10,574 nucleotides of DNA from Nitrososphaerota archaeon (lineage in GTDB: Archaea > Thermoproteota > Nitrososphaeria_A > Caldarchaeales > Calditenuaceae), in contig JAVYLC010000044.1 in assembly GCA_038741355.1 (NCBI GenBank), positions 1,662-12,235 on the forward strand. The letters are read 5' to 3'. Each line of letters begins with the position of its first letter. Positions within the stretch are counted from its first letter, which is position 1. Below the pieces are notes generated by a model. That model was given only the letters and a program-made list of their open reading frames with translations, was not told the DNA's origin and made no database searches. Both the position numbers and the translations under genes were made by a program. Below are positions 1 through 10,574 of the stretch, one piece after another.

Positions 1-1112
1 TCCACCTCGACTACCTGGGGAGGGCCATCCCCCTATACCTCTCAACCATCCTCATGTCTATACTGCTCTCTCATGTGTTGGGGGTTTCGCGGAGTAGGAT
101 TGGGGAGAGGTGGGTTAGGCTGATAGGCTGGGCCCTGATGGCGCTTGTATCGACGCCGCTGGTTCTCCTAGCTCTACGGATAAAACCGCCCATGCTCCTA
201 GCGCCTCACCCCGCGCTTCTCATCTCATCCGCGATAGAGGCGCCCAGCGCGGCCATGCTGTGGATGCTCCCCTACCTAGCGCTGCTAGGCCTCGCATACC
301 TCCACCTTTCCAAGACCAACTTCTACTCCTCAGTCTCACCCATACTCTTCTCAGTGCTGATGGAGCCGCCCCGCAGGCTCTCGAGATACTTCAAGATACC
401 TGGGGTGGGAAGGGTCTTTGGGTTTGGGTCTGCGCGGAGCTACTTCTCGCTGATGTATAGGCTTCACCTCGTGAGGGTTGTTAGGGAGGGTAGCCTCTGG
501 ACCGGTGTGATGGTGCTTCTGTTCCTGACGCTGGCGAATACCGCTCTTCCTAGGCTGGTGGGTGTCGCCCAGTTCCCCGAGGTGGCAGAGCTGACGATGA
601 TCGCCCTCTATATCCCGCTGCTCCCCGCCCTACTCTCGATAAACTGGAGCATATCTGAGAGGCCTAACACGTGGGTCATCAGCCTATCACAGAGGGGTGA
701 GAGATACTATGTCTCAGGCCTCTTCCTCGCATACTTCACGGTAACCCTCCTCTTCTCACTCTTACTCTACGGATTGGTCTCTATAGGCTCCAGCGAGGCG
801 CCATTCCTCCTAGTCGACCTGGTTCTACTGCTGGCCATGTCGTGCTTCGGCTCCACCCTCTCAGTCCTCGTCTCACTCGTCATGAGGCTGGCTCCCTCGC
901 CCTTCTCCCTCGGCTCCCTACTCTACATCCTGATACCGCTCACAGGCTCAATCCTCCTCTCACTCCCAATACTCGTGGTCAGGCTCTTTGAACCGCTAGC
1001 CAGCTCGCCAACAGTAGTCCTCATGGCCAATATGATGGCGTACGTGGGGGTCTCTGCGGCGGTCTTATATAAGATCCTCACGGTGGCGGGTGTGAAATAT
1101 CTCATAGGCTAA
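1..1112 (+). CDS. Polytopic integral membrane protein of unknown function; the 5' end is probably outside the window
   Basis: The track ORF is 54..1112, but the frame stays open from nt 3 to 53 (HLDYLGRAIPLYLSTIL-MSILL...). The hydrophobic segment AIPLYLSTILMSILLSHVLGV spans the listed ATG. No TATA-like box occurs in nt 1-53. There are at least 8 hydrophobic helices. No catalytic motif was recognised; in particular there is no GxGD, so it does not look like a PibD/FlaK prepilin peptidase. Confidence 0.55.
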   Translation, partial: HLDYLGRAIPLYLSTILMSILLSHVLGVSRSRIGERWVRLIGWALMALVSTPLVLLALRIKPPMLLAPHPALLISSAIEAPSAAMLWMLPYLALLGLAYLHLSKTNFYSSVSPILFSVLMEPPRRLSRYFKIPGVGRVFGFGSARSYFSLMYRLHLVRVVREGSLWTGVMVLLFLTLANTALPRLVGVAQFPEVAELTMIALYIPLLPALLSINWSISERPNTWVISLSQRGERYYVSGLFLAYFTVTLLFSLLLYGLVSIGSSEAPFLLVDLVLLLAMSCFGSTLSVLVSLVMRLAPSPFSLGSLLYILIPLTGSILLSLPILVVRLFEPLASSPTVVLMANMMAYVGVSAAVLYKILTVAGVKYLIG

Positions 1113-1220
1113 CCACACCCCTCTGCCTCTATTTCCCAGCGGATTTTCCGAAGGACTACGCCTATAGGGGGAGAGAGTCGGGGCTCTTCCTTCTATCCCT
1201 GGCGGTTATATTGGAAATAT

Positions 1221-1250
1221 TTTTATAACTCGTTGGGATAGTGTATTTTC
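1221..1250 (+). promoter_or_regulatory. Archaeal promoter for the ATPase gene: TATA box plus an AT-rich proximal element
   Basis: TTTTATAA at 1221-1228 ends 27 nt before the TTG start at 1255, which implies a leaderless or near-leaderless mRNA. TGTATTTTC at 1242-1250 lies between the TATA box and the start. The same 9-mer is found at the equivalent place upstream of the pilin gene (5288-5296). Confidence 0.5.
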
Positions 1251-1254
1251 AAGA

Positions 1255-3153
1255 TTGGTTCAGGAGGCTAAGCAGGTAAAGGTTAAGGAGGAGAAAAAGA
1301 AGGGGAAGAAGGAGGAGCTGGTCAAGCAGTGGAGGGGTATAGATGTAAAGCCGCTGAACCCCTCCTTCGAGATTCTCGACAGATATGTTTTAAGGGAGAA
1401 GTATGCTGAGGTTATTATTGCCTCGCCGCCGGGGAGGGTTGTCGAGCCGATATACTTCGTGGTTGAGACGCCCCTCGCATCACAGGAGGAGGCTGCGCTG
1501 GAGAAGATAAAGGACATCCTGACAAAGGAGCTCGATATCCCCAAGATTGGCGAGGAGGAAGAGGTTAGAAAGGTTATTCACGAGACTACCATGAAGGTTA
1601 TGAAGAAGTATAGGAGGGCTATAGGTATTCCCTCACTATCGGATGAGCTGGTTCAGAAGTTCCTCTACTACATTGACAGGGACTTGATGGGTTTCGGGCC
1701 CCTCAACGTGATTATGGAGGACTACAAGGTTGAGGATATTTCGTGTGACGGCCTCAATATTCCGATCTATGTCTGGCACAGGGACTTCGAGAGCATGCCC
1801 ACCAACGTCTCCTTCAACGATAGGGAGGCCCTCGACGACTTTATCATCCACCTGGCTCACAAGGCGGGTAAGCACGTGTCGTCCGCCTTCCCGATTGTGG
1901 ACGCCATGATCTATGGGAAGCATAGGCTTGCGGCGACGTTTAGGGAGGAGATCTCTCCGCGGGGGAGCACCTTCACTATTAGGAAGTTTAGGGAGAAGCC
2001 CTTCAGCGTCACAGAGCTTATCCTCAGCAATGTCTTGAACAGCGAAATGGGCGCGTATTTCTGGCTTCTCCTAGAGAATAAGGCCAGCCTGATGCTTATA
2101 GGCGCGACAGGGAGTGGAAAAACCACTCTGCTTAACGCGCTTACCACGTTTATCAAGCCGAGGATGAAGATAGTTACCTGTGAGGAGACGGCCGAGATCA
2201 ACATTCCGAGGGATAACTGGGTGAGGTTTGTGACTAGGGAGAGCTATGGGTTGGGAGCAACGGAGAGGGGTGCGGTGGCTCTCTTCGACTTGGTAAAGAC
2301 GAGTCTGAGGTATAGGCCTGACTACTTGATAGTCGGCGAGGTTAGAGGTGAAGAGGCTTTCGTCTTGTTCCAGGCTATCGCGACTGGGCATGGAGGGTTG
2401 ACGACTGTTCACGCCGAGGATGTGGAGAGTGCTGTTAAGAGGCTTATGAGCCCACCTATGAATATTCCTGAGACTCATATCTCGCTGCTCGACGCTATGG
2501 CCCTGATTCAGAGGGTGCAGCTTCGTGGCAAGGCGCAGCTCTTCGGGAGGAGGGTCAGGTTTATCTGGGAGGTCGAAGACGCACACAGGTATAGGAAGAT
2601 AGCAGAGTGGGACACTGTTACAGACACCTTCCGAGTCAACTTTGCCAACAGTCTCCAACTCGAGAATATCTCGCTCATGAATGGCGTGAGTAAGGAGGAT
2701 TTAATGCTTGAGCTCTGGAGGAGGAAGGAGCTTCTCGAGTGGATGCGTGAGAACAAGATAACGGATAATGATAAGGTGGCCAGTATCATTCTCTCCTACT
2801 ATGCCGATCCGGAGAAGCTGATCGCCGAGGCTGGGATTACTGTGAGGAAGCCGCCGTTCCCTGTTGCTAGGAGGGCTGAGGCTGTTGCCCGACCTATTGC
2901 GGCTCCACCTGTGTCTGGGGGTTCTCCGCAACTGGCTGCTGCTAGCGTTAGTTTGGAGGAGTTGGAGAAGGAGATTAAGCCTATTGCCGACTATATTGTC
3001 GACGCTATCCTTAGGAGGAGCGGCCCGATTCCGTATTGGCAGATATTTGTGAAGACACCGTATCCGAGGGATGTGATTATTCGGGCTATGCGATACCTGA
3101 AGGAGAAGAAGAGGATCGACATTATCGGCGGCGTTGTTGAGCTTATGGAGTAG
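1255..3153 (+). CDS. Type IV pilus/archaellum-family secretion ATPase (FlaI / TadA / VirB11-GspE superfamily) with a C-terminal extension
   Basis: 632 aa. Walker A GATGSGKTT is at nt 2101-2127. Walker B/Asp box is RPDYLIVGEVRGEEA and the His box is TGHGGLTTVHA. The N-terminal domain is typical of FlaI-like proteins. TTG at 1255 is the only start codon between the upstream in-frame stop (1165-1167) and the conserved core. aa 531-566 form a Pro/Ala-rich linker and aa 567-632 form an extra small helical domain. Confidence 0.9.
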   Translation: MVQEAKQVKVKEEKKKGKKEELVKQWRGIDVKPLNPSFEILDRYVLREKYAEVIIASPPGRVVEPIYFVVETPLASQEEAALEKIKDILTKELDIPKIGEEEEVRKVIHETTMKVMKKYRRAIGIPSLSDELVQKFLYYIDRDLMGFGPLNVIMEDYKVEDISCDGLNIPIYVWHRDFESMPTNVSFNDREALDDFIIHLAHKAGKHVSSAFPIVDAMIYGKHRLAATFREEISPRGSTFTIRKFREKPFSVTELILSNVLNSEMGAYFWLLLENKASLMLIGATGSGKTTLLNALTTFIKPRMKIVTCEETAEINIPRDNWVRFVTRESYGLGATERGAVALFDLVKTSLRYRPDYLIVGEVRGEEAFVLFQAIATGHGGLTTVHAEDVESAVKRLMSPPMNIPETHISLLDAMALIQRVQLRGKAQLFGRRVRFIWEVEDAHRYRKIAEWDTVTDTFRVNFANSLQLENISLMNGVSKEDLMLELWRRKELLEWMRENKITDNDKVASIILSYYADPEKLIAEAGITVRKPPFPVARRAEAVARPIAAPPVSGGSPQLAAASVSLEELEKEIKPIADYIVDAILRRSGPIPYWQIFVKTPYPRDVIIRAMRYLKEKKRIDIIGGVVELME

Positions 3154-3179
3154 AGTGAGGGCGCCGGCCGCGACACTCT
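3152..3179 (+). terminator. Possible GC-rich hairpin directly after the ATPase stop codon
   Basis: AGAGTG (3152-3157) is complementary to CACTCT (3174-3179). The 16-nt loop is made of overlapping palindromes (GGCGCC, GCCGGC, CGGCCG) and is followed by CCTTATATT. No long oligo-T run follows, so a terminator function is uncertain. Confidence 0.25.
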
Positions 3180-3292
3180 CCTTATATTGCAAAAGAAGAG
3201 GAAATAGTGGAAGGTAGTTAGTGGCCGCCAACCAGACGACATTTGAGAGAGTCGGAGCTCAGAGAAAATCGCCTCAGAGCCAATCCGTGAGA

Positions 3293-3339
3293 TAATAGCT
3301 GAGGCAACCATCAGCGTTAAGGCGCTCAAACAGCTATTA
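3293..3339. repeat. 9-bp perfect inverted repeat (stem-loop) in the convergent intergenic spacer
   Basis: TAATAGCTG (3293-3301) pairs with CAGCTATTA (3331-3339) across a 29-nt loop. The loop contains a nested AGCG(3313-3316)/CGCT(3323-3326) mini-stem. Confidence 0.4.
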
Positions 3340-3409
3340 AATACAAGATGCGATGAGGCTAAGGTCATTATTTCTCCAAACCGACCGCCGGGGAGGAGAG
3401 TGAGCCTAC

Positions 3410-5182
3410 CTAAGTAGTCTGTAGCTCGAATAGCCCCACTGTTATGTTTCCTGACAGCCATATCGCGATTAGGGATATTACCGCCATTATTACTGCGTGT
3501 TTGAATCCGCCCGCTATTGTCGAGCCGGAGACCTTTCCGGCTACCAGTCCGCTTATGACGGCTATGATTATGACGGGTGGGAGGAAGAAGTGTATGAACT
3601 CTGCGGAGGAGATGCTTAGGCGGGCTAGTTTTAGTAGGCCCTTCATGAATGAGACTAGTATGACTACGACGACTATGAGTAGGACTGCTGTGAGGTAGGG
3701 GATTATCATGAGTGGCTTTAGTGTTGCGCGTTTCTGCCTCTCAATCTCTTCCAAGTCTTCTGAGAAGGATGCTAGGACTTCGAAGGTCTCTGGGGCTCCG
3801 CCGCCAACGTCTATCGCGTCTATCAGTATGAAGACTCCTGCTCTCTCGAGCCATCCATAGGTCCGTTTTGCGAAGTCTTCGTAGATCTTTCTGAGGGGCA
3901 TGCCCCACCCTATCTGTCGGGCCATTATCTTGAGGTGTTTGCTGAAGGCGCCGTAGGGGTTTCTTGAGAGGTCGATTATGCATCTCTCGGGGCTGAGACC
4001 TGTTTTTCTGACCTCTGTGATGTCTCTGAGGAAGAGTGTGAGGCCGTGGACGACTGAGAAGTTTTCGGAGCCGTATTTCTGGTATGCTACGGCGGCGGGT
4101 GTGAAGAGGATTACTGAGAAGAGGATGAGGGCTATGGAGGACTCGTAGCCCGCCTCTATTCCCATTAGTTTCCTGATCTGGACTATGATGGAGGAGGTTG
4201 TGTCGAATGGTGTTATGTATTGGAGGTCTGTGAGGAAGAAGGGTATTGCGAATAGTGCGAGGAATGTGAAGGCTGCGGGCATTGTGAGGTATAGGACCCT
4301 CATGGGTCGCGGGTCTCTGATCGGGTATTTGGGCTGGCTCATGTCTGCGAGGTATAGGAAGAAGATTGACATGAGTGGTAGGAATAGGTAGGCTATCATG
4401 GCGAATTGTTCTGAAGGCATTATGAGGAATTCAGTGGGGAGTGCTCTTGAGACTATGTAGATTGTGAAGAGGACTAGTGAGAGCATCATTGTTATTGCTG
4501 CGTATCCCTCCATCAGCATCCCCATCCTCTCGCCGACTATCCTCATCTTACCCATCCTGGACGTGAAGATCTGCTCTGTCTTTCTGATTAGGAAGTGGAC
4601 GACGTCGCCTCCGCTCCTTATTGTTGAGGCGTAGCCCATTAGGAGGTCTCGGTATTCCTTGCTTGGGAGGCCTTTGGCCATTTTCTCGATTGCTGAGACC
4701 GGGTCTAGTCCGCCTACCTTGACGTTTAGGTCTGCGAGCCTGGCAGCCTTTGCTATGTTAGGCATCAGCTGGCTCTGGGCCAGTCTGGATAGGCTCTTGT
4801 ATGGTGGGATTCCGCCTGTGGACATTACGGCTAGGTAGGCTGCGGCGTAGGGGACCTCGCTCTCGAAGAGTGTTGCCGCTGAGGAGGCCGCCATGTATGG
4901 CCAAGCCAGGCCTAGGCCTAGGGTGATTACCGGTATTGAGCCTAGGAGGCCTAGGGCCAATAGGCTGCCGGTGACCATGTATGTGAAGACTGCTAGGGGT
5001 ATGGAGATGGCTGCTGATATCACTGTGGCAGCAGCTACGAGGGAGGTGAAGACCTCGGGGTATATCCGTTTCCCGGCGCTCTCGAGTTTTGAGGGGATGG
5101 CTGGCGCAATCCTCAATAGGAGGGCTCCGAGGCTCCTGAAGTTGGAGTAGGAGAAGCTTGTGAAGCTCTCTGAGAAGCCCAT
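3410..5182 (-). CDS. FlaJ/TadC-family polytopic membrane platform protein of a type IV pilus-like system (two T2SSF-like repeats)
   Basis: Two cytoplasmic helical repeats sit between TM blocks. The first is ...PYAAAYLAVMSTGGIPPYKSLSRLAQ...GGLDPVSAIEKMAKGLPSKEYRDLLMGYASTIRSGGDVVHFL. The second is ...FLRDITEVRKTGLSPERCIIDLSRNPYGAFSKHLKIMARQIGWGMPLRKIYEDFA. It is paired with the ATPase. I place the start at the ATG at 5182 (MGFSESF..., 590 aa), because TTATATAT on the minus strand (5208-5215) lies 26 nt upstream of it. The track start at 5299 would overlap the pilin promoter. Confidence 0.85.
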   Translation of the reverse strand: MGFSESFTSFSYSNFRSLGALLLRIAPAIPSKLESAGKRIYPEVFTSLVAAATVISAAISIPLAVFTYMVTGSLLALGLLGSIPVITLGLGLAWPYMAASSAATLFESEVPYAAAYLAVMSTGGIPPYKSLSRLAQSQLMPNIAKAARLADLNVKVGGLDPVSAIEKMAKGLPSKEYRDLLMGYASTIRSGGDVVHFLIRKTEQIFTSRMGKMRIVGERMGMLMEGYAAITMMLSLVLFTIYIVSRALPTEFLIMPSEQFAMIAYLFLPLMSIFFLYLADMSQPKYPIRDPRPMRVLYLTMPAAFTFLALFAIPFFLTDLQYITPFDTTSSIIVQIRKLMGIEAGYESSIALILFSVILFTPAAVAYQKYGSENFSVVHGLTLFLRDITEVRKTGLSPERCIIDLSRNPYGAFSKHLKIMARQIGWGMPLRKIYEDFAKRTYGWLERAGVFILIDAIDVGGGAPETFEVLASFSEDLEEIERQKRATLKPLMIIPYLTAVLLIVVVVILVSFMKGLLKLARLSISSAEFIHFFLPPVIIIAVISGLVAGKVSGSTIAGGFKHAVIMAVISLIAIWLSGNITVGLFELQTT

Positions 5183-5302
5183 GACTCTAGTCCACAGTAT
5201 CCACACCATATATAAGAGTTGTTTTATAGAAATACGCCGGGATTTTCCACTGGAAGGGCTGGGAAGCAACACATATATCTGGGAGCCTGTATTTTCCACG
5301 TA
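5183..5302. promoter_or_regulatory. Divergent promoter region between the TadC-like gene and the pilin gene
   Basis: The minus-strand TATA box TTATATAT is at 5208-5215. The plus-strand ATATAT at 5273-5278 ends 25 nt before the pilin ATG at 5303. A further TTTTATAG lies at 5223-5230. Direct repeats are ATTTTCCAC x2 (5242-5250, 5291-5299) and TCCACA x2 (5191-5196, 5200-5205). There is a palindrome TTCCA-C-TGGAA at 5245-5255. Confidence 0.55.
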
Positions 5303-5704
5303 ATGATGATTCGGAGAAAGGCGGGTATAAGCCCGGTCGTCGCAACGGTGATTCTGGTCGCGGTGGCGATTGTTATAGCGATTGCGGTGGCCTTCTGGGC
5401 GTCGGGGCTTGTCGGAGTCTTCACCAGGTTCGAGAAGATCGAGATACAGACAGCCTACTGGGACGGTTCTAGAGTAATAGTGATTGCTAAGAACACGGGC
5501 TCAAGCCCAGCAGTAGTAGACATGATACTAGTAAACGGACTACCATGCAGTACAGGTCTGACTAACCAGCTGTCGGTAGGAGGCACGTTCAGCTGGACTA
5601 TATCTCCAGGCGCCACCTGCGTTCGGACAGGCGGGATAACAAACGAAATAGCCCTCCACACGACTAGCGGCAAAACCTACCCTGTAGCAGTCCTAGTACC
5701 GTAA
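5303..5704 (+). CDS. Archaeal type IV pilin-like protein with a class III (prepilin-type) signal peptide; candidate major pilin
   Basis: 133 aa. The N-terminus is MMIRRKAG-ISPVVATVILVAVAIVIAIAVAFW: a short basic leader, then the SPV[IV]ATVIL-type motif and a hydrophobic helix typical of archaeal pilin N-termini. This is followed by a beta-rich Ser/Thr/Gly-rich domain (VIVIAKNTGSSPAVVDMILVNG...). It has its own TATA box and an oligo-T tract downstream. The ATG at 5303 is chosen over the track start at 5219. Confidence 0.8.
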   Translation: MMIRRKAGISPVVATVILVAVAIVIAIAVAFWASGLVGVFTRFEKIEIQTAYWDGSRVIVIAKNTGSSPAVVDMILVNGLPCSTGLTNQLSVGGTFSWTISPGATCVRTGGITNEIALHTTSGKTYPVAVLVP

Positions 5705-5715
5705 AACTACCCGAG

Positions 5716-5730
5716 TATTTTTATTGTTTT
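5716..5730 (+). terminator. Oligo-T tract, a candidate archaeal intrinsic terminator after the pilin gene
   Basis: TATTTTTATTGTTTT has a T5 run at 5718-5722 and a T4 run at 5727-5730, beginning 12 nt after the pilin stop codon. Confidence 0.45.
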
Positions 5731-5802
5731 ACCGCAACAGCTAGCATCTCTCATATAGAGTGTAATGTTTATGACCAATGCGGCACAGGGCAATTAGGGG
5801 GG

Positions 5803-6705
5803 GTGTCTTTAAACAGGGGCAAGCGCCTCCGAGCACTGGTAGTCATATGCGCATACAACGAGGAGGCGAGCATAGCCGCGCCGGTCTCCCAGGCTGTCAG
5901 GGAAGGGTTCGATGTCCTAGTAGTGGATGATGGGAGCGAAGACAGGACAGCACAGATCGCCGAGAAAAAAGGAGCCGTCGTAGTCAGAAACCCTGAGAGG
6001 AGTGGAAAAGCCGCCGCCCTGAGCAGAGCAATAGACTACGCAAAGACCCACGGCTATGACGCAATAATAGAGATAGATGCAGACGCAATACCAACGCCGG
6101 GAAGCATAACCAAACTATACCACCACCTCGCCCCACCAAGCGTAGGAGCAGTCTCCGCCCTCCAGATACCATTAGGAACTGGACTAGCATACAAAATAGA
6201 CGAACTCATGTGGAGCATACTAGCCGTAGGAAAATCACTACAACAACGCCTAAACCGCCCAGTCCACCTAGGAGCAGTAATGTACGGAGTAAAACTAGCA
6301 CACATCCAGAAGGTCATGGAAGTCATAAATGACGACGAGTTCATAGGAATACTTGTACGCAGGGACGGCAAGCAGAACTACTTCGCAGAAGACTGCATAG
6401 CTTATTTCGACGCATCTGCATCGATAAGACACCTCTTCAATAGAAGGAAGCGCATGATAATGGGACACCTACAACTTAAAGGATCCACAGCCCCCAGCAT
6501 GCAGCCCAACATACTTGCAGAGGCAACACTTCTCGCAATAATCAAAAAACCTTCAAGGATAACATGGTTAATACCAGCTATGACGATCGAAATAGCTGCA
6601 CGCCTTACAGCATTAAGAGACTCACGGAAAACACGAAAACTCCAAGAATACGCAAAATGGCACACACACGGGTTGAAAAAACCAATACAAACCCAAGCAA
6701 TATGA
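5803..6705 (+). CDS. Family 2 (GT-A fold) glycosyltransferase, possibly a polyprenol/dolichol-phosphate sugar synthase (DPM1/AglD/ArnC/GtrB-like)
   Basis: 300 aa. The N-terminus ALVVICAYNEEASI, then VLVVDDGSEDRT, then RNPERSGKAAALSRAI, then the DxD motif IEIDADA together form the classic GT2 signature order. The GTG start is preceded by a G-rich run (AGGGGGG). Confidence 0.8.
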   Translation: MSLNRGKRLRALVVICAYNEEASIAAPVSQAVREGFDVLVVDDGSEDRTAQIAEKKGAVVVRNPERSGKAAALSRAIDYAKTHGYDAIIEIDADAIPTPGSITKLYHHLAPPSVGAVSALQIPLGTGLAYKIDELMWSILAVGKSLQQRLNRPVHLGAVMYGVKLAHIQKVMEVINDDEFIGILVRRDGKQNYFAEDCIAYFDASASIRHLFNRRKRMIMGHLQLKGSTAPSMQPNILAEATLLAIIKKPSRITWLIPAMTIEIAARLTALRDSRKTRKLQEYAKWHTHGLKKPIQTQAI

Positions 6706-7628
6706 ACGCACTACACGCGCTCTCATACATCATCGATAGGCTCGCCACATACAGCACTATACTTTACCTTACAATGATTACTCCCCACAAATACGTAAAG
6801 AATTGGACAGCACTTTACTTAACTGCACTTTTAGGAAGAAAAAGCGTATCCATAGCTAAAGATGGAACACTAAGTGCAAAAATATCAGCACGTAAACTAT
6901 TTAAATGCTTAGTCGCCACCGAATACATCTACAGAAGGTCAAAAGTTCCTCAGTATGCCAGGAAAATCTCCTTCAACAATACATGGATGAAAATCTACTG
7001 CCTGAATGGCAGCTGCGAGTTAAAAGTCCAGCCTGAGAAGATTCTCATGGTAAGCATTCCAGAAGTCTTCAACGAGATCTATAATGTTAACGTTAGGGGC
7101 ATGGTAGTCTTGGATGTCGGCGCATATGTGGGAGACTCGGCACTATACTGGCTCTATAAAGGTGCGAGAAAGGTTATAGCTGTAGAGCCTGTTCCAGAAC
7201 ACTATGAGTCTCTCTTAGAGAATGCAAAAGGAAAACCCATTGTAGCGATTAACGCTTCTGTGGGTCAAAAGATTCCCTTATTACCTAATCAGGTCGGTCT
7301 TGACACGTATGGACTCATATCTTCAGAAAAAACTACAATGCAGCATTTAGATGTACCAGTGTATAAATTACTTGAATTAGTAGAGACTTGGAAGCCCGAT
7401 GTAGTTAAAATGAATTTTGAGGGCTGCGAATATGCCGTGATTAATGAGATAGTCCAACTACCTAGTTATGGAGTCAAGATCATAATTGTCCAATTTCACA
7501 AAAAGAAAGAACGCTCAATGCATAGAGCCCTCTTATACGCACAAAAATACCTAGGCCCACCCAAGATAACCGAGTCAATATTTACGAAAAACCCAAGGAT
7601 AACCTGCATTTGGGCGACCCTGATGTGA
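6702..7628 (+). CDS. FkbM-family SAM-dependent methyltransferase
   Basis: 308 aa counted from the ATG at 6702, which overlaps the GT2 TGA stop (ATGA). VVLDVGAYVGDSALYWLYKGARKVIAVEPVPEHYESLLENA matches the FkbM/Methyltransf_21-type SAM-binding pattern (DVGAxxGD...v.AfEP.P). The gene is markedly AT-rich, with AAA, TTA and GAA codons. Confidence 0.7.
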   Translation: MNALHALSYIIDRLATYSTILYLTMITPHKYVKNWTALYLTALLGRKSVSIAKDGTLSAKISARKLFKCLVATEYIYRRSKVPQYARKISFNNTWMKIYCLNGSCELKVQPEKILMVSIPEVFNEIYNVNVRGMVVLDVGAYVGDSALYWLYKGARKVIAVEPVPEHYESLLENAKGKPIVAINASVGQKIPLLPNQVGLDTYGLISSEKTTMQHLDVPVYKLLELVETWKPDVVKMNFEGCEYAVINEIVQLPSYGVKIIIVQFHKKKERSMHRALLYAQKYLGPPKITESIFTKNPRITCIWATLM

Positions 7629-7640
7629 AAAGAAAACAGC

Positions 7641-8015
7641 TCAAAATCTGCCTATCAGTAGGGCGCCTGAGATTATTAGCGCTATGCCGATCCACTGCTC
7701 GATAGAAACAACCTCTTCAAGGAGGAAATACCCCACAACAACTATAGATACTATGGATATCGAGAGGAAGAATCTCCCAAGCATGACGCCCATAGCGCTG
7801 TAGACCCAATAGCTCAGTACTGCTACTGTGAAGCCCGTAGCCATGGCGAGGATGAACCACCTGTTAAAGAAGAGGTTAATCAAGAACCTCACCGAGACTT
7901 CCGGCTGTCCTACCTCCCTAACTGCCATCCCCCAGAACATTGTGTTCAAACCCACCAATCCGACGACAATCAGCCCAATATACCAGTGGTTCGGCACCAA
8001 CTCTCCATCCACCAC
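7641..8015 (-). CDS. Small 4-TM membrane protein, DMT/EamA-SMR-like (ArnE/ArnF-like); candidate lipid-linked sugar flippase
   Basis: 124 aa with four hydrophobic helices. The C-terminal motif EEVVSIEQWIGIALIISGALLIGRF is typical of EamA/SMR-type helices. The GTG start at 8015 has TTATATTT on the minus strand (8045-8052) about 30 nt upstream. The functional call comes from context and size only. Confidence 0.5.
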   Translation of the reverse strand: MVDGELVPNHWYIGLIVVGLVGLNTMFWGMAVREVGQPEVSVRFLINLFFNRWFILAMATGFTVAVLSYWVYSAMGVMLGRFFLSISIVSIVVVGYFLLEEVVSIEQWIGIALIISGALLIGRF

Positions 8016-8129
8016 ACTTCAAAACCAACCATACCGCAGAAAACAAATATAACCCTTCAAATATCCTAACCGGAGCACCATACCAAGGAATTAATACAGC
8101 AATCCAGCATCAAGATTCGGAAAAACCGC
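8016..8129. promoter_or_regulatory. Divergent promoter region between the small DMT-like gene and the GT-C gene
   Basis: The minus-strand TATA box TTATATTT is at 8045-8052. A plus-strand AATTAATA lies at 8089-8096, about 34 nt before the ATG at 8130. Confidence 0.35.
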
Positions 8130-9515
8130 ATGGGGCAAATTAAAAACGGCAGAAAAACCATCGCTCTACTGGCGCTGATAGTGGCTTTAGGGTTCGCAAT
8201 ACGCTTCACCATCTGGATATATCCAGCCTACGGCTATGAGAACCAAGGCCTAACGATCTTTGACCCCGCCACATATACCATCTTCGGTTTAGCGTACATC
8301 CAAGCCATCACGTCGATGAACATGACCGCGCTCAGCAGTATAAACCCGGGAGTCCCGCCTCTAGGCATGATCCTCACAGGCATGTCAGCACATGCACTCG
8401 GCCAATTCATCGGCATTTTTCAGGCAGGACTCCTTGCACCGATAACAGCATCCGCACTTACAGCGATTCCAGCCTACATGATAGCCAAGAAAGTGTCACA
8501 AAAGCTAGCGTTAGTGGCGCCAGCCCTAGTAGCCTTCGACCCATTCTTCATCCAATACTCAACCGCTTACCTCGACTCAATAGGCACACTCTTCGCAACA
8601 ACATCAGCATTTTACATCATCAATCAACAGAATAGAAGAGCTCTAATCCTAGCTATCGTCTTCGCCAGTCTTGCAATACTCTCAAAGCTATCATTCGCCA
8701 CCTTCACATCGCTACTAGCGCTCCTCCTACTCTACACCAAGAAAACCACAGCCAAAAGAGCCGCCCTCTACCTACTTGCTCCACCCCTCACACTCCTCCT
8801 AAGTCCAGCCATATGGATGCCAGGCAACATCGGAGTAATAGTCCAGGGACACCTACAGTTCAATAATCTGCCCCTCTCACCACTCCTCGGCCCCTTCGTA
8901 ATAGGCGTCCCGCAATCCCTCCCATGGCATATCCTAACATACTTGGGTATGGGGCAAGTCTCCTGGAACACACTACCCTCAATAACACCACTAGCCCTCC
9001 TAGCGATGATACTATACGCAACGATGAAGAACAAGCCATACATCACAGACCACGCAGCGGTGGCGGCCTCTGCGATGATGCTTACCATCTTGCTGTTGCC
9101 GAGAAACTATTGGACCTACAGCTGGGGTGGAGGCGCAATACAGGGCGTCCTAATACGCCAGTTCTACCCCTACTACTTCTACCCCCTAATCCCCTTCCTA
9201 GCCACCCTACTACCATCAGCCAACAGAATAGGAGGCATCAATAGCCGCATAGTAAGCTACCCGATCCTCCTCACCACACTCCTCTCCCCCCTCGCATTCG
9301 CGATGAACCTTGGGCTCCCCTACTGGGACTTCCTCTTCACACTAGTCTACAGCTCAGCCCAGGGCAGCTGGGTAGCAGAGGGTATGGCCGCCACAGCAAT
9401 AACCGCCGCAACCCTCATAGTCATAATCACGGCCGCAGAGCTCCTATACAGGAAGAGCATAGCCCAGGGCCAATCCGAGGGCGGTGGTAAACAAACTGTT
9501 AATCAACTAAAATAA
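8130..9515 (+). CDS. GT-C fold integral-membrane glycosyltransferase (ArnT / PMT / GT39-GT83-like), expected to use a polyprenol-phosphate sugar donor
   Basis: 461 aa with roughly 11-12 TM helices. The N-terminal TM helix is followed by a loop carrying acidic residues (YENQGLTIFDP). Then come the PPLGMIL motif and the FDPFF...AYLDS region, in the order seen in ArnT/PMT_2-type proteins. There is no WWDYG motif, so it is not an AglB/STT3 oligosaccharyltransferase. Confidence 0.6.
   Translation: MGQIKNGRKTIALLALIVALGFAIRFTIWIYPAYGYENQGLTIFDPATYTIFGLAYIQAITSMNMTALSSINPGVPPLGMILTGMSAHALGQFIGIFQAGLLAPITASALTAIPAYMIAKKVSQKLALVAPALVAFDPFFIQYSTAYLDSIGTLFATTSAFYIINQQNRRALILAIVFASLAILSKLSFATFTSLLALLLLYTKKTTAKRAALYLLAPPLTLLLSPAIWMPGNIGVIVQGHLQFNNLPLSPLLGPFVIGVPQSLPWHILTYLGMGQVSWNTLPSITPLALLAMILYATMKNKPYITDHAAVAASAMMLTILLLPRNYWTYSWGGGAIQGVLIRQFYPYYFYPLIPFLATLLPSANRIGGINSRIVSYPILLTTLLSPLAFAMNLGLPYWDFLFTLVYSSAQGSWVAEGMAATAITAATLIVIITAAELLYRKSIAQGQSEGGGKQTVNQLK
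9494..9506 (+). repeat. Copy 1 of a 13-nt perfect direct repeat AACTGTTAATCAA
   Basis: It lies in the last codons of the GT-C gene (..QTVNQLK*) and is identical to 9579-9591. Confidence 0.6.
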
Positions 9516-9550
9516 AACTAATAAGCCACGCCGACAACACCAGCCACTCT

Positions 9551-9567
9551 TATTTAAAAGATATATA
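9551..9567 (+). promoter_or_regulatory. TATA-like elements upstream of the second pilin-like gene
   Basis: TTTAAAA is at 9553-9559 and ATATATA at 9561-9567. The latter ends 25 nt before the TTG at 9592. Confidence 0.45.
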
Positions 9568-9578
9568 CATGCTGGCCT

Positions 9579-9591
9579 AACTGTTAATCAA
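9579..9591 (+). repeat. Copy 2 of the 13-nt perfect direct repeat AACTGTTAATCAA
   Basis: It directly abuts the TTG start codon at 9592. Confidence 0.6.
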
Positions 9592-10119
9592 TTGGAGAGG
9601 GACGTGACCGTCCACCCCAACCCTAGCAACCAGAGGAGGTCTAGGAGGAGGCGTGGAGACACAGTAATACTAGCCGAGATTCTTCTCTTCGCCGGTGTTG
9701 TCGCGGTAGGCCTTGCCCTCTGGGGTCTCTCCCTAGGCTACGTGACCTCCCAGTCAACAAAGCTAGCCCAAGACTATGACAAGCTTGTCTCACAGCAGAG
9801 AGGCTTCCTCATTATAGAGGCAGTCTCACTGCAAGGCAACATAGTCTGGGTATCAAATCCCGGACTGAACGATGTAGCGGTTATAAGCTGCACGATATAT
9901 CCGAAGACCACACCATCCCCCGGCATAAGATACAATGTGGGGAGCGTAGTCGTGGAAGCCTCAGCCAACAGCCCGACCGCGCTTAGAGGCTGTGAACGAT
10001 TCGCAGGCCCACCCCCATACATAGTCGAGGTCTGGTACATCTCTGCACACCTCTACGACCCGCAAGACCCGGCCAGCAACTCGATGTACGCGCTCGTGGC
10101 CCGATATGAGAAAGGATAG
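9592..10119 (+). CDS. Pilin-like protein with a class III signal peptide-like N-terminus (minor pilin candidate)
   Basis: 175 aa. The basic leader ...QRRSRRRRG is followed by DTVILAEILLFAGVVAVGLALW, which fits the [KR]-G-[D]-[T] plus hydrophobic-helix pattern of archaeal prepilins. A beta-rich domain follows (IVWVSNPGLNDVAVISCTIY). The start is TTG at 9592 or GTG at 9604. Confidence 0.65.
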   Translation: MERDVTVHPNPSNQRRSRRRRGDTVILAEILLFAGVVAVGLALWGLSLGYVTSQSTKLAQDYDKLVSQQRGFLIIEAVSLQGNIVWVSNPGLNDVAVISCTIYPKTTPSPGIRYNVGSVVVEASANSPTALRGCERFAGPPPYIVEVWYISAHLYDPQDPASNSMYALVARYEKG

Positions 10120-10574
10120 GTCCGGAATCTCCTCAATGGTTGGGATGGCGATAATCTTAGCGATATTCTTCACAACCCTGATCCCTCTATACGTATACAT
10201 GTCAAGCCTCTACGGCCTCCTCTCCAACGAGACGAATTCCAGAAGGGTAAGAGACGTGGACAGGGAGACGGAAGACTTGAAGCTCTTCGTGGAGGGTAAG
10301 TCGGGAATAAACCGGGAAAACCCGGGCATAAGCGTAATTCTGAAGAACAACTCACCCCTCCTGATAAGGGTTGAGAGGATATGGATGATGAACGTGGAGA
10401 CGGGCTCACCAGTTGGAGACACCCCCTGCATAGATAGGACGCTTGACGTACCTCCCGGCTGGAACATCACGGTACAAGTAAACACATGTACGCAGGGGTT
10501 CACTGGGAGGGTTCAGTTCATAGCTGTTACTGAGCGGGGCAGGCTATTCGGCTCCGCACCCATCGACCTCCTAG
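10106..10574 (+). CDS. Pilin-like protein with a class III signal peptide-like N-terminus, 3'-partial (runs off the window)
   Basis: This ORF is not in the track. The ATG at 10106 overlaps the preceding gene by 14 nt. The translation is MRKDRSG-ISSMVGMAIILAIFFTTLIPLYVY..., followed by ISVILKNNSPLLIRVERIWMMN. The frame is open to nt 10573. The architecture matches the other two pilin-like genes. Confidence 0.65.
   Translation, partial: MRKDRSGISSMVGMAIILAIFFTTLIPLYVYMSSLYGLLSNETNSRRVRDVDRETEDLKLFVEGKSGINRENPGISVILKNNSPLLIRVERIWMMNVETGSPVGDTPCIDRTLDVPPGWNITVQVNTCTQGFTGRVQFIAVTERGRLFGSAPIDLL

What the first reader, a model, noticed from the sequence alone, without database searches (positions are those of the whole stretch)
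5803..9515. Lipid-carrier-type glycosylation cassette (GT2 + methyltransferase + small flippase-like protein + GT-C) embedded between pilin genes of an archaeal type IV pilus locus
**Seen in the sequence.** Four genes sit between pilin 5303-5704 and the pilin-like genes 9592-10574:
- a GT2 enzyme with DDGSEDRT and DAD motifs
- an FkbM-type methyltransferase
- a 124-aa 4-TM DMT/EamA-like protein
- a 461-aa multi-TM GT-C-like protein

**Established knowledge.** The triad of a GT-A polyprenol-phosphate sugar synthase, a small flippase and a GT-C transferase is a known logic. It charges a lipid carrier in the cytoplasm, flips it, and transfers the sugar on the outer face. Examples are ArnC/ArnE-ArnF/ArnT, GtrB/GtrA/GtrC, and Haloferax AglD/AglR/AglS with the methyltransferase AglP. 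In Pseudomonas aeruginosa the GT-C enzyme TfpW, encoded next to pilA, glycosylates the pilin.

**Inference.** This cassette is a pilus-dedicated extracytoplasmic glycosylation route, possibly adding a methylated sugar. It would act separately from general AglB N-glycosylation. In support, pilins 1 and 2 contain no usable N-X-S/T sequon but have Ser/Thr/Pro-rich surface segments (TGSSPAV, KTTPSPG, SANSPT), the kind of target used by PMT-like O-glycosyltransferases. I do not know of a characterised archaeal T4P locus with this arrangement.
Basis: partly seen in the sequence, partly recalled or inferred. Interest (0 to 1): 0.8.

Follow-up and report, generated by a model that had tools for sequence, protein, structure and literature searches.

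The report
Pilin-linked membrane glycosyltransferase cassette in archaea
A hot-spring archaeon's pilus locus holds a membrane sugar-transferase gene next to its main pilin gene, with swappable helper genes, and pilins that have this neighbour almost never carry the usual N-glycosylation sites, so it is a strong candidate for the still-unidentified archaeal enzyme that puts sugars on pilins by another route.

Summary
The four genes are real: GT2 glycosyltransferase (5803-6705,+), FkbM methyltransferase (6702-7628,+), a 4-TM half-size EamA/DMT protein (7641-8015, on the minus strand) and a 461-aa GT-C-fold enzyme (8130-9515,+). They sit between pilin genes of a Caldarchaeales (Aigarchaeota) type IV pilus locus.

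The GT-C gene has no direct Pfam hit. Homologues, profile searches and a confident AlphaFold model place it in the PMT_2/PMT branch of GT-C.

Across about 95 related loci the conserved unit is pilin1 plus GT-C. About 29 loci have pilin1 followed directly by GT-C. GT2, methyltransferase and DMT form a variable module (two GT2 types, methyltransferase in either orientation, a second GT2, or nothing). In the window, about 6300-9000 is a recombination tract.

Pilin1 orthologues next to a GT-C almost never have N-X-S/T sequons (67 of 72 have none, against about 59% expected to have one). All 10 without an adjacent GT-C have one or two (Fisher 1.4e-9; 1.4e-5 on lineage representatives).

The O-linkage, the sugar and its methylation are still inferred. 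This is a new archaeal variant of the bacterial TfpW and three-component logic.

The parts
1255..3153 (+). Type IV pilus assembly ATPase (FlaI/TadA-like)
   Evidence: Pfam T2SSE 1.9e-32. NCBIfam FlaI-like 4.2e-108, below the equivalog cut-off. Syntenic in relatives.
3410..5182 (-). TadC/FlaJ-type membrane platform protein. The longest ORF runs to 5299; orthologues start at the Met equivalent to 5182.
   Evidence: Pfam T2SSF 3e-21. UpsF/BasF-like, below cut-off. Orthologues of 591 aa align from residue 39-40.
5303..5704 (+). pilin1: 133-aa candidate major pilin and proposed acceptor of the GT-C. It has no N-X-S/T sequon.
   Evidence: arch_flag_Nterm 21.8 bits against cut-off 20; UpsA-like 1.2e-6; Pilin_N 0.0041.
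5803..6705 (+). GT2 (GT-A fold) glycosyltransferase of the minimal cellulose-synthase-like type. [quoted passage not shown]
   Evidence: PF00535 7.9e-22. Family profile against the PDB: PcManGT 2e-18, GtrB 1e-10, DPMS 1e-9, ArnC 7e-9. AF2 pLDDT 93. Foldseek top hits are hyaluronan, cellulose and chitin synthases. Invariant or nearly invariant D42 D43 (DDGS), D94 (DAD), D178 E179, R215 R217.
6702..7628 (+). FkbM-family SAM-dependent methyltransferase in a variable slot of the cassette. Low-GC gene.
   Evidence: PF05050 2.4e-10. TIGR01444 68.5 bits against cut-off 37.7. GC 0.40-0.41 against about 0.52 elsewhere. In relatives the slot holds an inverted methyltransferase, a second GT2, or nothing.
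7641..8015 (-). 124-aa, 4-TM half-size EamA/DMT protein, transcribed divergently from the GT-C. Proposed flippase for the lipid-linked sugar.
   Evidence: Sub-threshold EamA, TMEM234, ArnE and ArnF hits. EamA hits and DMT names in homologues. Found only in loci that also hold a GT2, apart from one contig that breaks off inside the methyltransferase gene, and always next to the GT-C.
8130..9515 (+). 461-aa GT-C-fold glycosyltransferase, a divergent member of the PMT_2/PMT branch. Proposed extracytoplasmic pilin glycosyltransferase.
   Evidence: Invariant D137, D149, K186, R325, W399-D400-F401, and D45 conserved in at least 90% of sequences in the first external loop. The conserved aromatic loop 323-351 is partly disordered in the model.
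9592..10119 (+). pilin2: 175-aa pilin-like protein. Sequon-free here and in 9 of 10 orthologues.
   Evidence: No family hit. Conserved downstream of the GT-C. Sequons: 1 observed against 9.2 expected over 10 orthologues.
10106..10574 (+). pilin3: N-terminal part of a pilin-like protein of about 396 aa that runs off the window. It carries sequons at the expected rate.
   Evidence: Sequons: 48 observed against 38.9 expected over orthologues.
6300..9000 (.). Recombination tract, with approximate breakpoints inside GT2 and inside GT-C. Here the window is closest to the L001 lineage; elsewhere it is closest to the L004/L005/L009 lineages.
   Evidence: Sliding nucleotide identity: 88-97% to L001 and 63-76% to the others inside the tract; 86-96% or 81-90% to L004 outside it.

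Best explanation
The locus encodes a pilus-dedicated, lipid-carrier-dependent glycosylation route.

Proposed steps:
- The GT-C enzyme (8130-9515) sits in the membrane with its active site on the outer face. It transfers sugar from a dolichyl-phosphate-linked donor onto the small pilins encoded beside it (pilin1 and probably pilin2), at residues other than sequon asparagines. The most likely targets are Ser/Thr hydroxyls.
- In this window the donor is supplied locally. The GT2 (5803-6705) loads a sugar onto the lipid carrier on the cytoplasmic face.
- The FkbM methyltransferase (6702-7628) may methylate that sugar while it is still on the SAM-accessible cytoplasmic side.
- The small DMT protein (7641-8015) flips the lipid-linked sugar outward.

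In many relatives the GT-C follows the pilin gene directly, with no helper genes. There it presumably draws on a housekeeping dolichyl-phosphate sugar.

The helper module is exchanged by recombination, which would change the glycan displayed on the pilus.

Shown here: gene identities and folds, the conserved pilin + GT-C linkage, the variability and mosaicism of the module, and the inverse relation between an adjacent GT-C and N-glycosylation sequons.

Inferred: the acceptor, the O-linkage, the donor sugar, the methylation target and the flippase activity.
For: 1. Fold and family of the GT-C. Twelve of 46 homologues hit PMT_2. Remote profile hits are PMT_2/PMT. The AF2 model has pLDDT 87, and its Foldseek matches at probability 1.0 are all GT-C enzymes.
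2. Candidate catalytic residues. Conserved acidic residues include D45, in the loop after TM1, plus invariant D137, D149 and D400.
3. Linkage seen from the GT-C side. In all 14 genome loci found with the GT-C, the gene lies in or beside pilus genes, including loci with 32% GT-C identity and rearranged ATPase/TadC.
4. Linkage seen from the pilin side. Of 46 pilin1-anchored metagenome loci with at least 1.5 kb downstream:
   - 34 have the PMT_2-type GT-C within 5 kb;
   - 3 break off inside the cassette;
   - 3 have a DUF2079 polytopic protein in the same position;
   - 6 have none.
5. Sequon inverse relation. Pilin1 with an adjacent GT-C or cassette: 5 with and 67 without a sequon. Pilin1 with no adjacent GT-C: 10 with and 0 without. 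Fisher 1.4e-9.
   - On lineage representatives the counts are 2 of 24 against 7 of 7, Fisher 1.4e-5. From composition, 14.1 of the 24 would be expected to carry a sequon.
   - Pilins from L092 (DUF2079 adjacent) and L094 (none adjacent) are over 85% identical. The differences between them include two S-to-N changes that create NST and NWT.
   - pilin2 is also depleted (1 against 9.2 expected), whereas pilin3 is not (48 against 38.9).
6. Helper module.
   - The GT2 family's best solved relatives by sequence are lipid-phosphate-dependent GT2s: PcManGT 2e-18, GtrB, DPMS, ArnC.
   - The small protein is a half-size EamA/DMT like ArnE/ArnF.
   - It occurs only together with a GT2, apart from one truncated contig, and always divergent from the GT-C.
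7. Mosaic tract at about 6300-9000, and cassette types scattered over the GT-C tree.
8. Precedent. TfpW, encoded next to pilA, works with a GtrA-like or ArnE/F flippase (bioRxiv 10.1101/2020.04.19.049825). Bacterial three-component systems are described in PMC11127046. Haloferax AglD/AglR/AglS are described in PMC3871713.
Against: - No experimental data exist for any of these proteins or for pili of this lineage.
- The acceptor is inferred only from gene linkage and sequon statistics.
- The sequences compared are related and come from one order. Part of the linkage may therefore be inherited synteny, and the Fisher tests are not phylogenetically corrected.
- Several loci scored as lacking a GT-C are short contigs of 1.4-4 kb. 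A GT-C could lie elsewhere in those genomes.
- The window's own GT-C has no direct family hit.
- By structure the GT2 resembles processive synthases rather than DPM1/GtrB/ArnC, and it meets no NCBIfam equivalog cut-off.
- The small protein's own hits are all below the curated cut-offs.
- About half of the loci have no GT2 or flippase, so the triad is not obligatory.
- The four genes are not one transcription unit.
- The substrate of the FkbM enzyme is unknown.
Confidence: 0.68

Rival explanations
1. AglS-like finishing enzyme. The GT-C adds a terminal sugar from a Dol-P-sugar onto N-glycans already attached by AglB to pilus proteins, for example the large minor pilins. This is what AglD/AglR/AglS do for the Haloferax S-layer glycoprotein.
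For: AglD/AglR/AglS are the only characterised archaeal GT2 + flippase + transferase triad, and they act on an N-linked glycan (PMC3871713). pilin3 and the other large pilin-like proteins of the locus carry sequons at the expected rate.
Against: - The gene is tied to pilin1, usually immediately downstream of it, not to the sequon-bearing pilins.
- pilin1 and pilin2 are specifically depleted of sequons.
- Sequons appear in pilin1 exactly where the GT-C is missing. That pattern suggests alternatives rather than sequential steps.
Confidence: 0.12
2. The GT-C-fold protein is not a pilin glycosyltransferase. It could be a non-catalytic membrane partner of pilus assembly (as PIG-U is in GPI transamidase). 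Alternatively it could be an enzyme that modifies a membrane lipid or envelope glycan around the pilus base, in the manner of ArnT.
For: Foldseek also matches PIG-U (TM-score normalised to the target 0.43-0.48). GT-C enzymes of the PMT_2 type include lipid-modifying ArnT (established knowledge). No acceptor has been shown.
Against: - Acidic and basic residues at the typical GT-C positions are invariant.
- The gene co-occurs with sugar-donor genes.
- A different polytopic family (DUF2079, with a lectin-like outer domain) occupies the same position after the pilin gene in some loci.
- A lipid-modifying or scaffold role would not explain the inverse relation between an adjacent GT-C and pilin sequons.
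Confidence: 0.1
3. A general surface-glycan (agl or exopolysaccharide) island that happens to lie in the pilus locus, with no specific relation to pilins.
For: GT2 and FkbM genes are common in general glycan clusters. The methyltransferase gene has foreign-looking GC content.
Against: The linkage persists from both search directions and through rearrangements, strand inversion and loss of all helper genes. The GT-C family is small and lineage-restricted: 18 clusters at E<=1e-30 among 1.84 billion representatives.
Confidence: 0.04

Closest known systems
Pseudomonas aeruginosa group IV pilin glycosylation: TfpW (GT-C) encoded next to pilA, with the D-Araf donor genes and a GtrA-like or ArnE/F flippase
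   Same: A GT-C-fold enzyme gene lies directly beside the major pilin gene. The donor is lipid-linked, made in the cytoplasm, and flipped by a small 4-TM protein. The targets are pilin Ser/Thr (bioRxiv 10.1101/2020.04.19.049825).
   Different: TfpW is bacterial. It has a large periplasmic C-terminal domain and polymerises arabinofuranose. Its donor genes lie elsewhere in the genome. Homology of the archaeal enzyme to TfpW was not tested here. The archaeal enzyme is only 461 aa, belongs to the PMT_2 branch, and has its helper genes inserted between the pilin gene and the GT-C.
Bacterial three-component extracytoplasmic glycosylation systems (GtrB/GtrA/GtrC, ArnC/ArnE-ArnF/ArnT, polyprenyl-phosphoribose synthase/MATE/GT136)
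   Same: The logic is a polyprenyl-phosphate sugar synthase, a small flippase and a GT-C transferase encoded together (PMC11127046). The small protein here has the ArnE/ArnF architecture.
   Different: Those systems modify O-antigen, lipid A or cell-wall glycans, not pilins. By structure the GT2 here is cellulose-synthase-like, not GtrB/ArnC-like. The ArnE, ArnF and ArnC equivalog cut-offs are not met.
Haloferax volcanii AglD / AglR / AglS, with the methyltransferase AglP
   Same: An archaeal Dol-P-mannose synthase, a flippase-associated protein and an outward-facing mannosyltransferase, with a methyltransferase acting in the same pathway (PMC3871713).
   Different: AglS extends an Asn-linked glycan on the S-layer glycoprotein. 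AglR is a large Wzx-like protein, not a 4-TM DMT. The Haloferax genes are not linked to pilin genes. Here the neighbouring pilins lack sequons.
Protein O-mannosyltransferases (PMT/POMT, GT39) and actinobacterial Pmt
   Same: The same branch of GT-C (PMT/PMT_2 profiles reach relatives of this family). They use a Dol-P or polyprenyl-P-mannose donor and Ser/Thr acceptors on secreted proteins.
   Different: There are no MIR domains. The protein is much shorter. The window protein itself does not reach the Pfam threshold. No solved PMT is found by sequence. Specificity here appears to be dedicated to a neighbouring pilin.
PcManGT of Pyrobaculum calidifontis (PDB 6yv7)
   Same: It is the best solved sequence relative of the window's GT2 family (2e-18 over profile positions 17-200). 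From memory of the paper, not read here: PcManGT is a minimal cellulose-synthase-like GT2 from a TACK archaeon, reported as GDP-, dolichyl-phosphate- and Mn-dependent.
   Different: PcManGT has three transmembrane helices and sits in a proposed N-glycan cluster. The window protein ends in amphipathic helices and sits in a pilus locus.

Membership tests
GT-C glycosyltransferase superfamily (fold level) | Polytopic membrane protein whose fold matches solved GT-C enzymes | tested here: met
   AF2 pLDDT 87, pTM 0.89. Foldseek probability 1.0 to STT3, AglB, PglB, Pmt4, DPY19 and ALG3, with query-normalised TM-scores of about 0.34-0.48. The non-GT-C hits have probability below 0.25.
GT-C glycosyltransferase superfamily (fold level) | Conserved acidic residue in the first extracytoplasmic loop, plus further conserved charged residues | tested here: met
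   D45 is conserved in at least 90% of sequences. D137, D149, K186, R325 and D400 are invariant in 46 sequences. The outside location of the 31-45 loop is inferred from the helix order and the K/R-rich N-terminus; it was not computed.
GT-C glycosyltransferase superfamily (fold level) | Uses a polyprenyl-phosphate-linked sugar donor | not testable with these tools
   Needs biochemistry.
Pfam PMT_2 (PF13231) / PMT branch (CAZy GT39/GT83-like) | Match to the PMT_2 profile above the gathering score | tested here: inconclusive
   The window protein has no hit at E<=0.1. Twelve of 46 homologues do (best 1.3e-12). The L016 orthologue scores 45.6 bits against cut-off 26.1. Nine of ten remote profile hits are PMT_2/PMT. 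Membership is therefore transitive only.
Eukaryotic/actinobacterial PMT (GT39) proper | MIR domains in the large luminal loop, and length of about 500-750 aa or more | tested here: not met
   The protein is 461 aa, has no MIR or PMT hit, and finds no PDB PMT by sequence.
STT3/AglB/PglB oligosaccharyltransferases | STT3 profile match and a C-terminal soluble domain with the WWDYG motif | tested here: not met
   No STT3 Pfam hit. The protein ends after the last TM helix. The structural similarity is confined to the shared GT-C membrane core.
Polyprenyl-phosphate sugar synthases (DPM1 / GtrB / ArnC / AglD-AglJ type GT2) | Equivalog-level match, or closest structural similarity, to these enzymes | tested here: inconclusive
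   GT2 membership itself is met (PF00535 78 bits). PpgS, AglJ, Dol-P-hexose transferase and ArnC match only over the N-terminal roughly 100 aa and far below their cut-offs. The family profile finds PcManGT 2e-18, GtrB 1e-10, DPMS 1e-9 and ArnC 7e-9. Foldseek, however, ranks hyaluronan, cellulose and chitin synthases first.
ArnE/ArnF-type half-size DMT flippases (EamA, PF00892) | About 110-130 aa, 4 TM helices, single EamA domain | tested here: inconclusive
   The protein is 124 aa with four hydrophobic segments (sequence). EamA 17.6 bits against cut-off 28.2; ArnE 18.5 against 92. Five of 37 homologues carry PF00892. Flippase activity is not testable here.
FkbM methyltransferase family | Match to TIGR01444 / PF05050 above cut-off | tested here: met
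   68.5 bits against 37.7, and 41.3 bits against 22.7.
Three-component extracytoplasmic glycosylation system | GT2 synthase, small flippase and GT-C encoded together and co-inherited | tested here: met
   All three are adjacent in the window. In relatives the small DMT gene occurs only with a GT2, apart from L014 whose contig breaks off inside the methyltransferase gene, and always next to the GT-C. The GT-C also occurs alone, so the triad is facultative.
TfpW-type pilin glycosylation | GT-C gene adjacent to the major pilin gene | tested here: met
   Twenty-nine loci have pilin1 followed directly by the GT-C on the same strand. Fourteen have it convergent. Eleven have helper genes in between.
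TfpW-type pilin glycosylation | Sequence homology to TfpW, and glycan demonstrated on pilin Ser/Thr | not tested

The most novel reading that the evidence does not exclude
This small PMT_2-derived GT-C family, and the DUF2079 proteins that replace it in some loci, are the first identifiable archaeal protein O-glycosyltransferases. They would be dedicated to type IV pilins and act as an evolutionary alternative to AglB N-glycosylation. On this reading, lineages switch between sequon-bearing pilins and sequon-free pilins that have a private GT-C. A recombining donor cassette would then generate serotype-like pilus glycan diversity, plausibly under pressure from pilus-binding viruses.
Probability: 0.45. 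Interest if true: 0.85.

Novelty: new variant of a known kind. Interest (0 to 1): 0.7.

Why it matters
Archaeal pili, threads and S-layers carry O-linked sugars, but no archaeal O-glycosyltransferase has been identified. The pathway was called 'still elusive' in 2021 (PMC8241124) and the enzyme 'currently elusive' in 2024 (PMC11607397).

This locus offers a concrete gene family and a named probable substrate encoded next door. It also comes with natural controls: relatives with the GT-C alone, with different donor modules, or without it but with sequons. That makes the question directly testable by glycoproteomics, heterologous reconstitution or cryo-EM of pili.

The locus also shows that the pilin-adjacent GT-C arrangement known from Pseudomonas TfpW has an archaeal counterpart. 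Finally, it suggests that N- and O-type pilin glycosylation are interchangeable solutions.

Tried and rejected
- Direct Pfam, NCBIfam and PDB sequence searches with the 461-aa protein, and a PDB search with its family profile, found nothing. The family had to be placed through homologues, a library-wide profile search and structure.
- Sequon absence in the single window pilins is not significant. It was kept as an argument only after the ortholog analysis.
- An hhalign comparison of the GT-C family profile with the DUF2079 protein that replaces it showed no detectable relation. 'DUF2079 is GT-C-like' therefore rests on my memory of the Pfam clan and is not claimed as tested.
- I expected the GT2 to resemble DPMS/GtrB structurally. 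It resembles minimal processive synthases instead, so the 'canonical synthase' label was dropped.
- The literature held no prior description. The 2016 census of archaeal T4P does not mention glycosyltransferases. A 2026 TFF preprint mentions only a glycosyltransferase near the ups locus. A Yellowstone community paper had nothing relevant. Searches for an identified archaeal O-glycosyltransferase found none.
- Rfam and tRNA scans of the window were empty.
- The 256-nt insertion at 3154-3409 has no copy in any fetched locus.
- The look-up of encoding contigs had no record for the window's exact protein.

Full report
**What is in the window.** The window comes from a Nitrososphaerota/Caldarchaeales (Aigarchaeota) metagenome-assembled genome; its proteins are recorded under that name. 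It encodes:
- the 3' part of a membrane protein gene (54-1112);
- a FlaI/TadA-type ATPase (1255-3153,+);
- a TadC/FlaJ-type platform protein (3410-5182,-);
- pilin1 (5303-5704,+);
- a GT2 glycosyltransferase (5803-6705,+);
- an FkbM methyltransferase (6702-7628,+), whose start overlaps the GT2 stop as ATGA;
- a 124-aa four-helix membrane protein on the minus strand (7641-8015);
- a 461-aa polytopic protein (8130-9515,+);
- two pilin-like genes (9592-10119, and 10106 to beyond the window end).

No RNA family or tRNA is present.

**Checking the four gene assignments.**
- GT2 and FkbM are above the curated thresholds.
- The small protein's own hits to EamA, TMEM234, ArnE and ArnF are below threshold. 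Its homologues include EamA-positive and 'DMT-like permease' entries. Its size and four hydrophobic segments match the ArnE/ArnF architecture.
- The 461-aa protein gave no hit in Pfam, NCBIfam or PDB sequences, either alone or as a profile. Its placement rests on three other lines:
  - Twelve of 46 aligned homologues hit PMT_2, best 1.3e-12.
  - A library-wide profile search found only 18 clusters at E<=1e-30 and 751 at E<=1e-3. The weaker hits cover profile positions of about 70-230, and nine of ten sampled are PMT_2/PMT proteins.
  - The AlphaFold model is confident (pLDDT 87, pTM 0.89). Its significant structural neighbours are exclusively GT-C enzymes: STT3, AglB, PglB, Pmt4, DPY19, ALG3, AftA.
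- The GT-C has no STT3-type C-terminal domain and no MIR domains. It is therefore neither an AglB paralogue nor a classical PMT.
- Conserved residues fit a catalytically active GT-C. D45 lies in the loop after the first helix. D137, D149, K186, R325 and a W399-D400-F401 motif are invariant. A conserved aromatic loop (323-351) is partly disordered in the model.

**The GT2 is not a textbook Dol-P-sugar synthase.**
- Its family profile is closest by sequence to PcManGT of Pyrobaculum (2e-18), then GtrB, DPMS and ArnC. All four are lipid-phosphate-dependent GT2 enzymes.
- Its confident model (pLDDT 93) is structurally closest to hyaluronan, cellulose and chitin synthases.
- It carries the D, D, D, R-x-x-R-[W/M] pattern of that group: DDGS 42-45, DAD 92-94, DDE 177-179, RRKRM 214-218.
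- It lacks a membrane channel. A lipid-phosphate acceptor is plausible but not shown.

**Gene neighbourhoods, searched from the GT-C side.**
- Relatives at 57-78% GT-C identity have the same order: ATPase, TadC, pilin1, GT2, a variable gene, the small protein on the opposite strand, GT-C, pilin2, pilin3.
- The variable slot holds the FkbM gene, an inverted and different FkbM gene, a second GT2, or nothing.
- In the 14 species-level genome loci found with the GT-C family, the gene is always in or beside pilus genes.
- This includes two loci with only 32% GT-C identity and rearranged machinery genes. In one of them pilin1 directly precedes the GT-C. In the other a GT2 lies between them.

**Gene neighbourhoods, searched from the pilin side.** A metagenome scan with pilin1 returned 80 loci, mapped by tblastn with the window proteins. 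Among the 46 with at least 1.5 kb downstream of pilin1:
- 34 have the PMT_2-type GT-C within 5 kb;
- 3 break off inside the helper genes;
- 3 have an 780-810-aa DUF2079 protein (Pfam 1.5e-49) with a lectin-like outer domain in exactly that position;
- 6 have none.

Among all loci with a GT-C hit, three arrangements occur:
- pilin1 followed directly by the GT-C on the same strand: 29 loci;
- pilin1 followed by a convergent, more distant GT-C: 14 loci;
- pilin1 followed by helper genes and then the GT-C: 11 loci.

The small DMT gene occurs only where a GT2 is present, apart from one contig that breaks off inside the methyltransferase gene. It is always divergent from the GT-C. That fits a donor-synthase plus flippase pair.

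**Sequons.**
- In the window, pilin1 and pilin2 have no N-X-S/T. Taken alone this is unremarkable.
- Across orthologues it is remarkable. Of pilin1 genes with an adjacent GT-C or cassette, 67 have no sequon and 5 have one. All 10 pilin1 genes without an adjacent GT-C have one or two. Fisher 1.4e-9.
- On representatives of clusters at 85% identity the counts are 2 of 24 against 7 of 7 (Fisher 1.4e-5). Composition-preserving shuffles predict 14.1 of the 24 should have a sequon, and no simulation out of 200,000 fell as low as 2.
- Two pilins over 85% identical illustrate the pattern. L092 has a DUF2079 neighbour and no sequon. L094 has no such neighbour and carries NST and NWT, created by S-to-N changes.
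- pilin2 orthologues are also depleted (1 against 9.2 expected). The large pilin3 is not (48 against 38.9).
- These tests are not corrected for shared ancestry. Some loci scored as lacking a GT-C are short contigs.

**Mosaic structure.** Nucleotide identity along the window shows two patterns.
- At 1-6300 (86-96%) and at 9000-10574 (81-90%) the window is closest to the L004/L005/L009 lineages.
- At about 6300-9000 it is closest to L001 (88-97%), while the others drop to 63-76%.

The tract runs from the 3' half of GT2 through the methyltransferase and the small gene into the first two thirds of the GT-C. The methyltransferase gene also has low GC (0.40-0.41 against about 0.52). On a neighbour-joining tree of full-length GT-Cs, the helper-gene content is scattered over clades. 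The module therefore behaves as an exchangeable cassette.

**Interpretation.** The best-supported reading has these steps:
- The GT-C glycosylates the neighbouring small pilins on the outer face of the membrane, using a dolichyl-phosphate-linked donor, at non-sequon positions. Ser/Thr are the most likely targets.
- In this window the GT2 makes the donor, the FkbM enzyme may methylate it on the cytoplasmic side, and the DMT protein flips it.
- Where the helper genes are absent, a housekeeping Dol-P-sugar would serve as donor.

Only the gene identities, the linkage, the variability and the sequon relation are shown. Every biochemical step is inferred. The rivals fit the sequon pattern and the tight pilin linkage less well. 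They are an AglS-like finishing enzyme for N-glycans, a non-catalytic or lipid-modifying GT-C-fold protein, and a chance-located general glycan island.

**Comparison with known systems.**
- Functionally the closest is Pseudomonas TfpW. It is a GT-C encoded beside pilA, uses a lipid-linked donor, and depends on a GtrA-like or ArnE/F flippase.
- The helper logic matches bacterial three-component systems and Haloferax AglD/AglR/AglS.
- The library searched held no description of such an arrangement in an archaeal pilus locus. It also held no identified archaeal O-glycosyltransferase. The pathway and enzyme are called elusive.
- I therefore rate this a new variant of a known kind. Interest is fairly high because it turns an open question into a testable one.

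Noticed in passing
window 3154-3409: A 256-nt stretch separates the convergent ATPase and TadC genes. In all relatives these genes abut or overlap. The stretch is flanked by a 13-nt direct repeat (GGAGTAGAGTGAG at 3147-3159 and GGAGGAGAGTGAG at 3392-3404) that duplicates the gene ends. No copy exists in any fetched locus. It looks like a small insertion with a target-site duplication, of unknown nature.
   Followed up: partly
window 6501-7500: The FkbM methyltransferase gene has GC 0.40-0.41 against about 0.52 for the rest of the window. It is 94% identical in protein to the L001 copy, more than its neighbours are. This suggests recent acquisition or exchange.
   Followed up: partly
L092 647-3082, L089 5615-7966, L090 701-3073: In three metagenome loci the position directly after pilin1 is taken by an 780-810-aa DUF2079 polytopic protein. 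Two of the three were scanned against Pfam and carry a weak, sub-threshold concanavalin/laminin-G-like outer domain. The PMT_2-type GT-C is absent there, and those pilins also lack sequons. No sequence relation to the window's GT-C family was detectable by hhalign.
   Followed up: partly
L001 13151-18988 (downstream of the window's end in relatives): A conserved block follows the pilin genes. It holds three large proteins with pilin-like N-termini on the opposite strand (about 433, 573 and 380 aa) and a 540-aa protein with a TackOD1 domain. It is conserved even in the locus with 44% GT-C identity (L006). Its function is unknown.
   Followed up: no
window 54-1112: This ORF is only the C-terminal two thirds of a membrane protein of about 506 aa. 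In relatives that protein follows an ABC-transporter ATPase gene directly upstream of the pilus ATPase. The pair is conserved next to the pilus locus in many relatives.
   Followed up: no
L004 11453-12434 and 13445-14393: The pilin2-pilin3 gene pair is tandemly duplicated in one relative. The second pilin2 copy is 70% identical and carries the only sequon seen among pilin2 orthologues.
   Followed up: no
window 5705-5802: A T-rich run (tatttttattgtttt) lies right after the pilin1 stop, and A/T-rich boxes lie before the GT2 start. This could be an archaeal terminator or attenuator that lets pilin1 be expressed far above the glycosylation genes. It was not tested.
   Followed up: no
window 9303-9332 (GT-C residues 392-401): The invariant motif M-N-x-x-x-P-Y-W-D-F lies near the C-terminal helices of the GT-C. 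The W-D core recalls the WWDYG motif of STT3/AglB, but it sits in a different structural context. Its significance is unknown.
   Followed up: no
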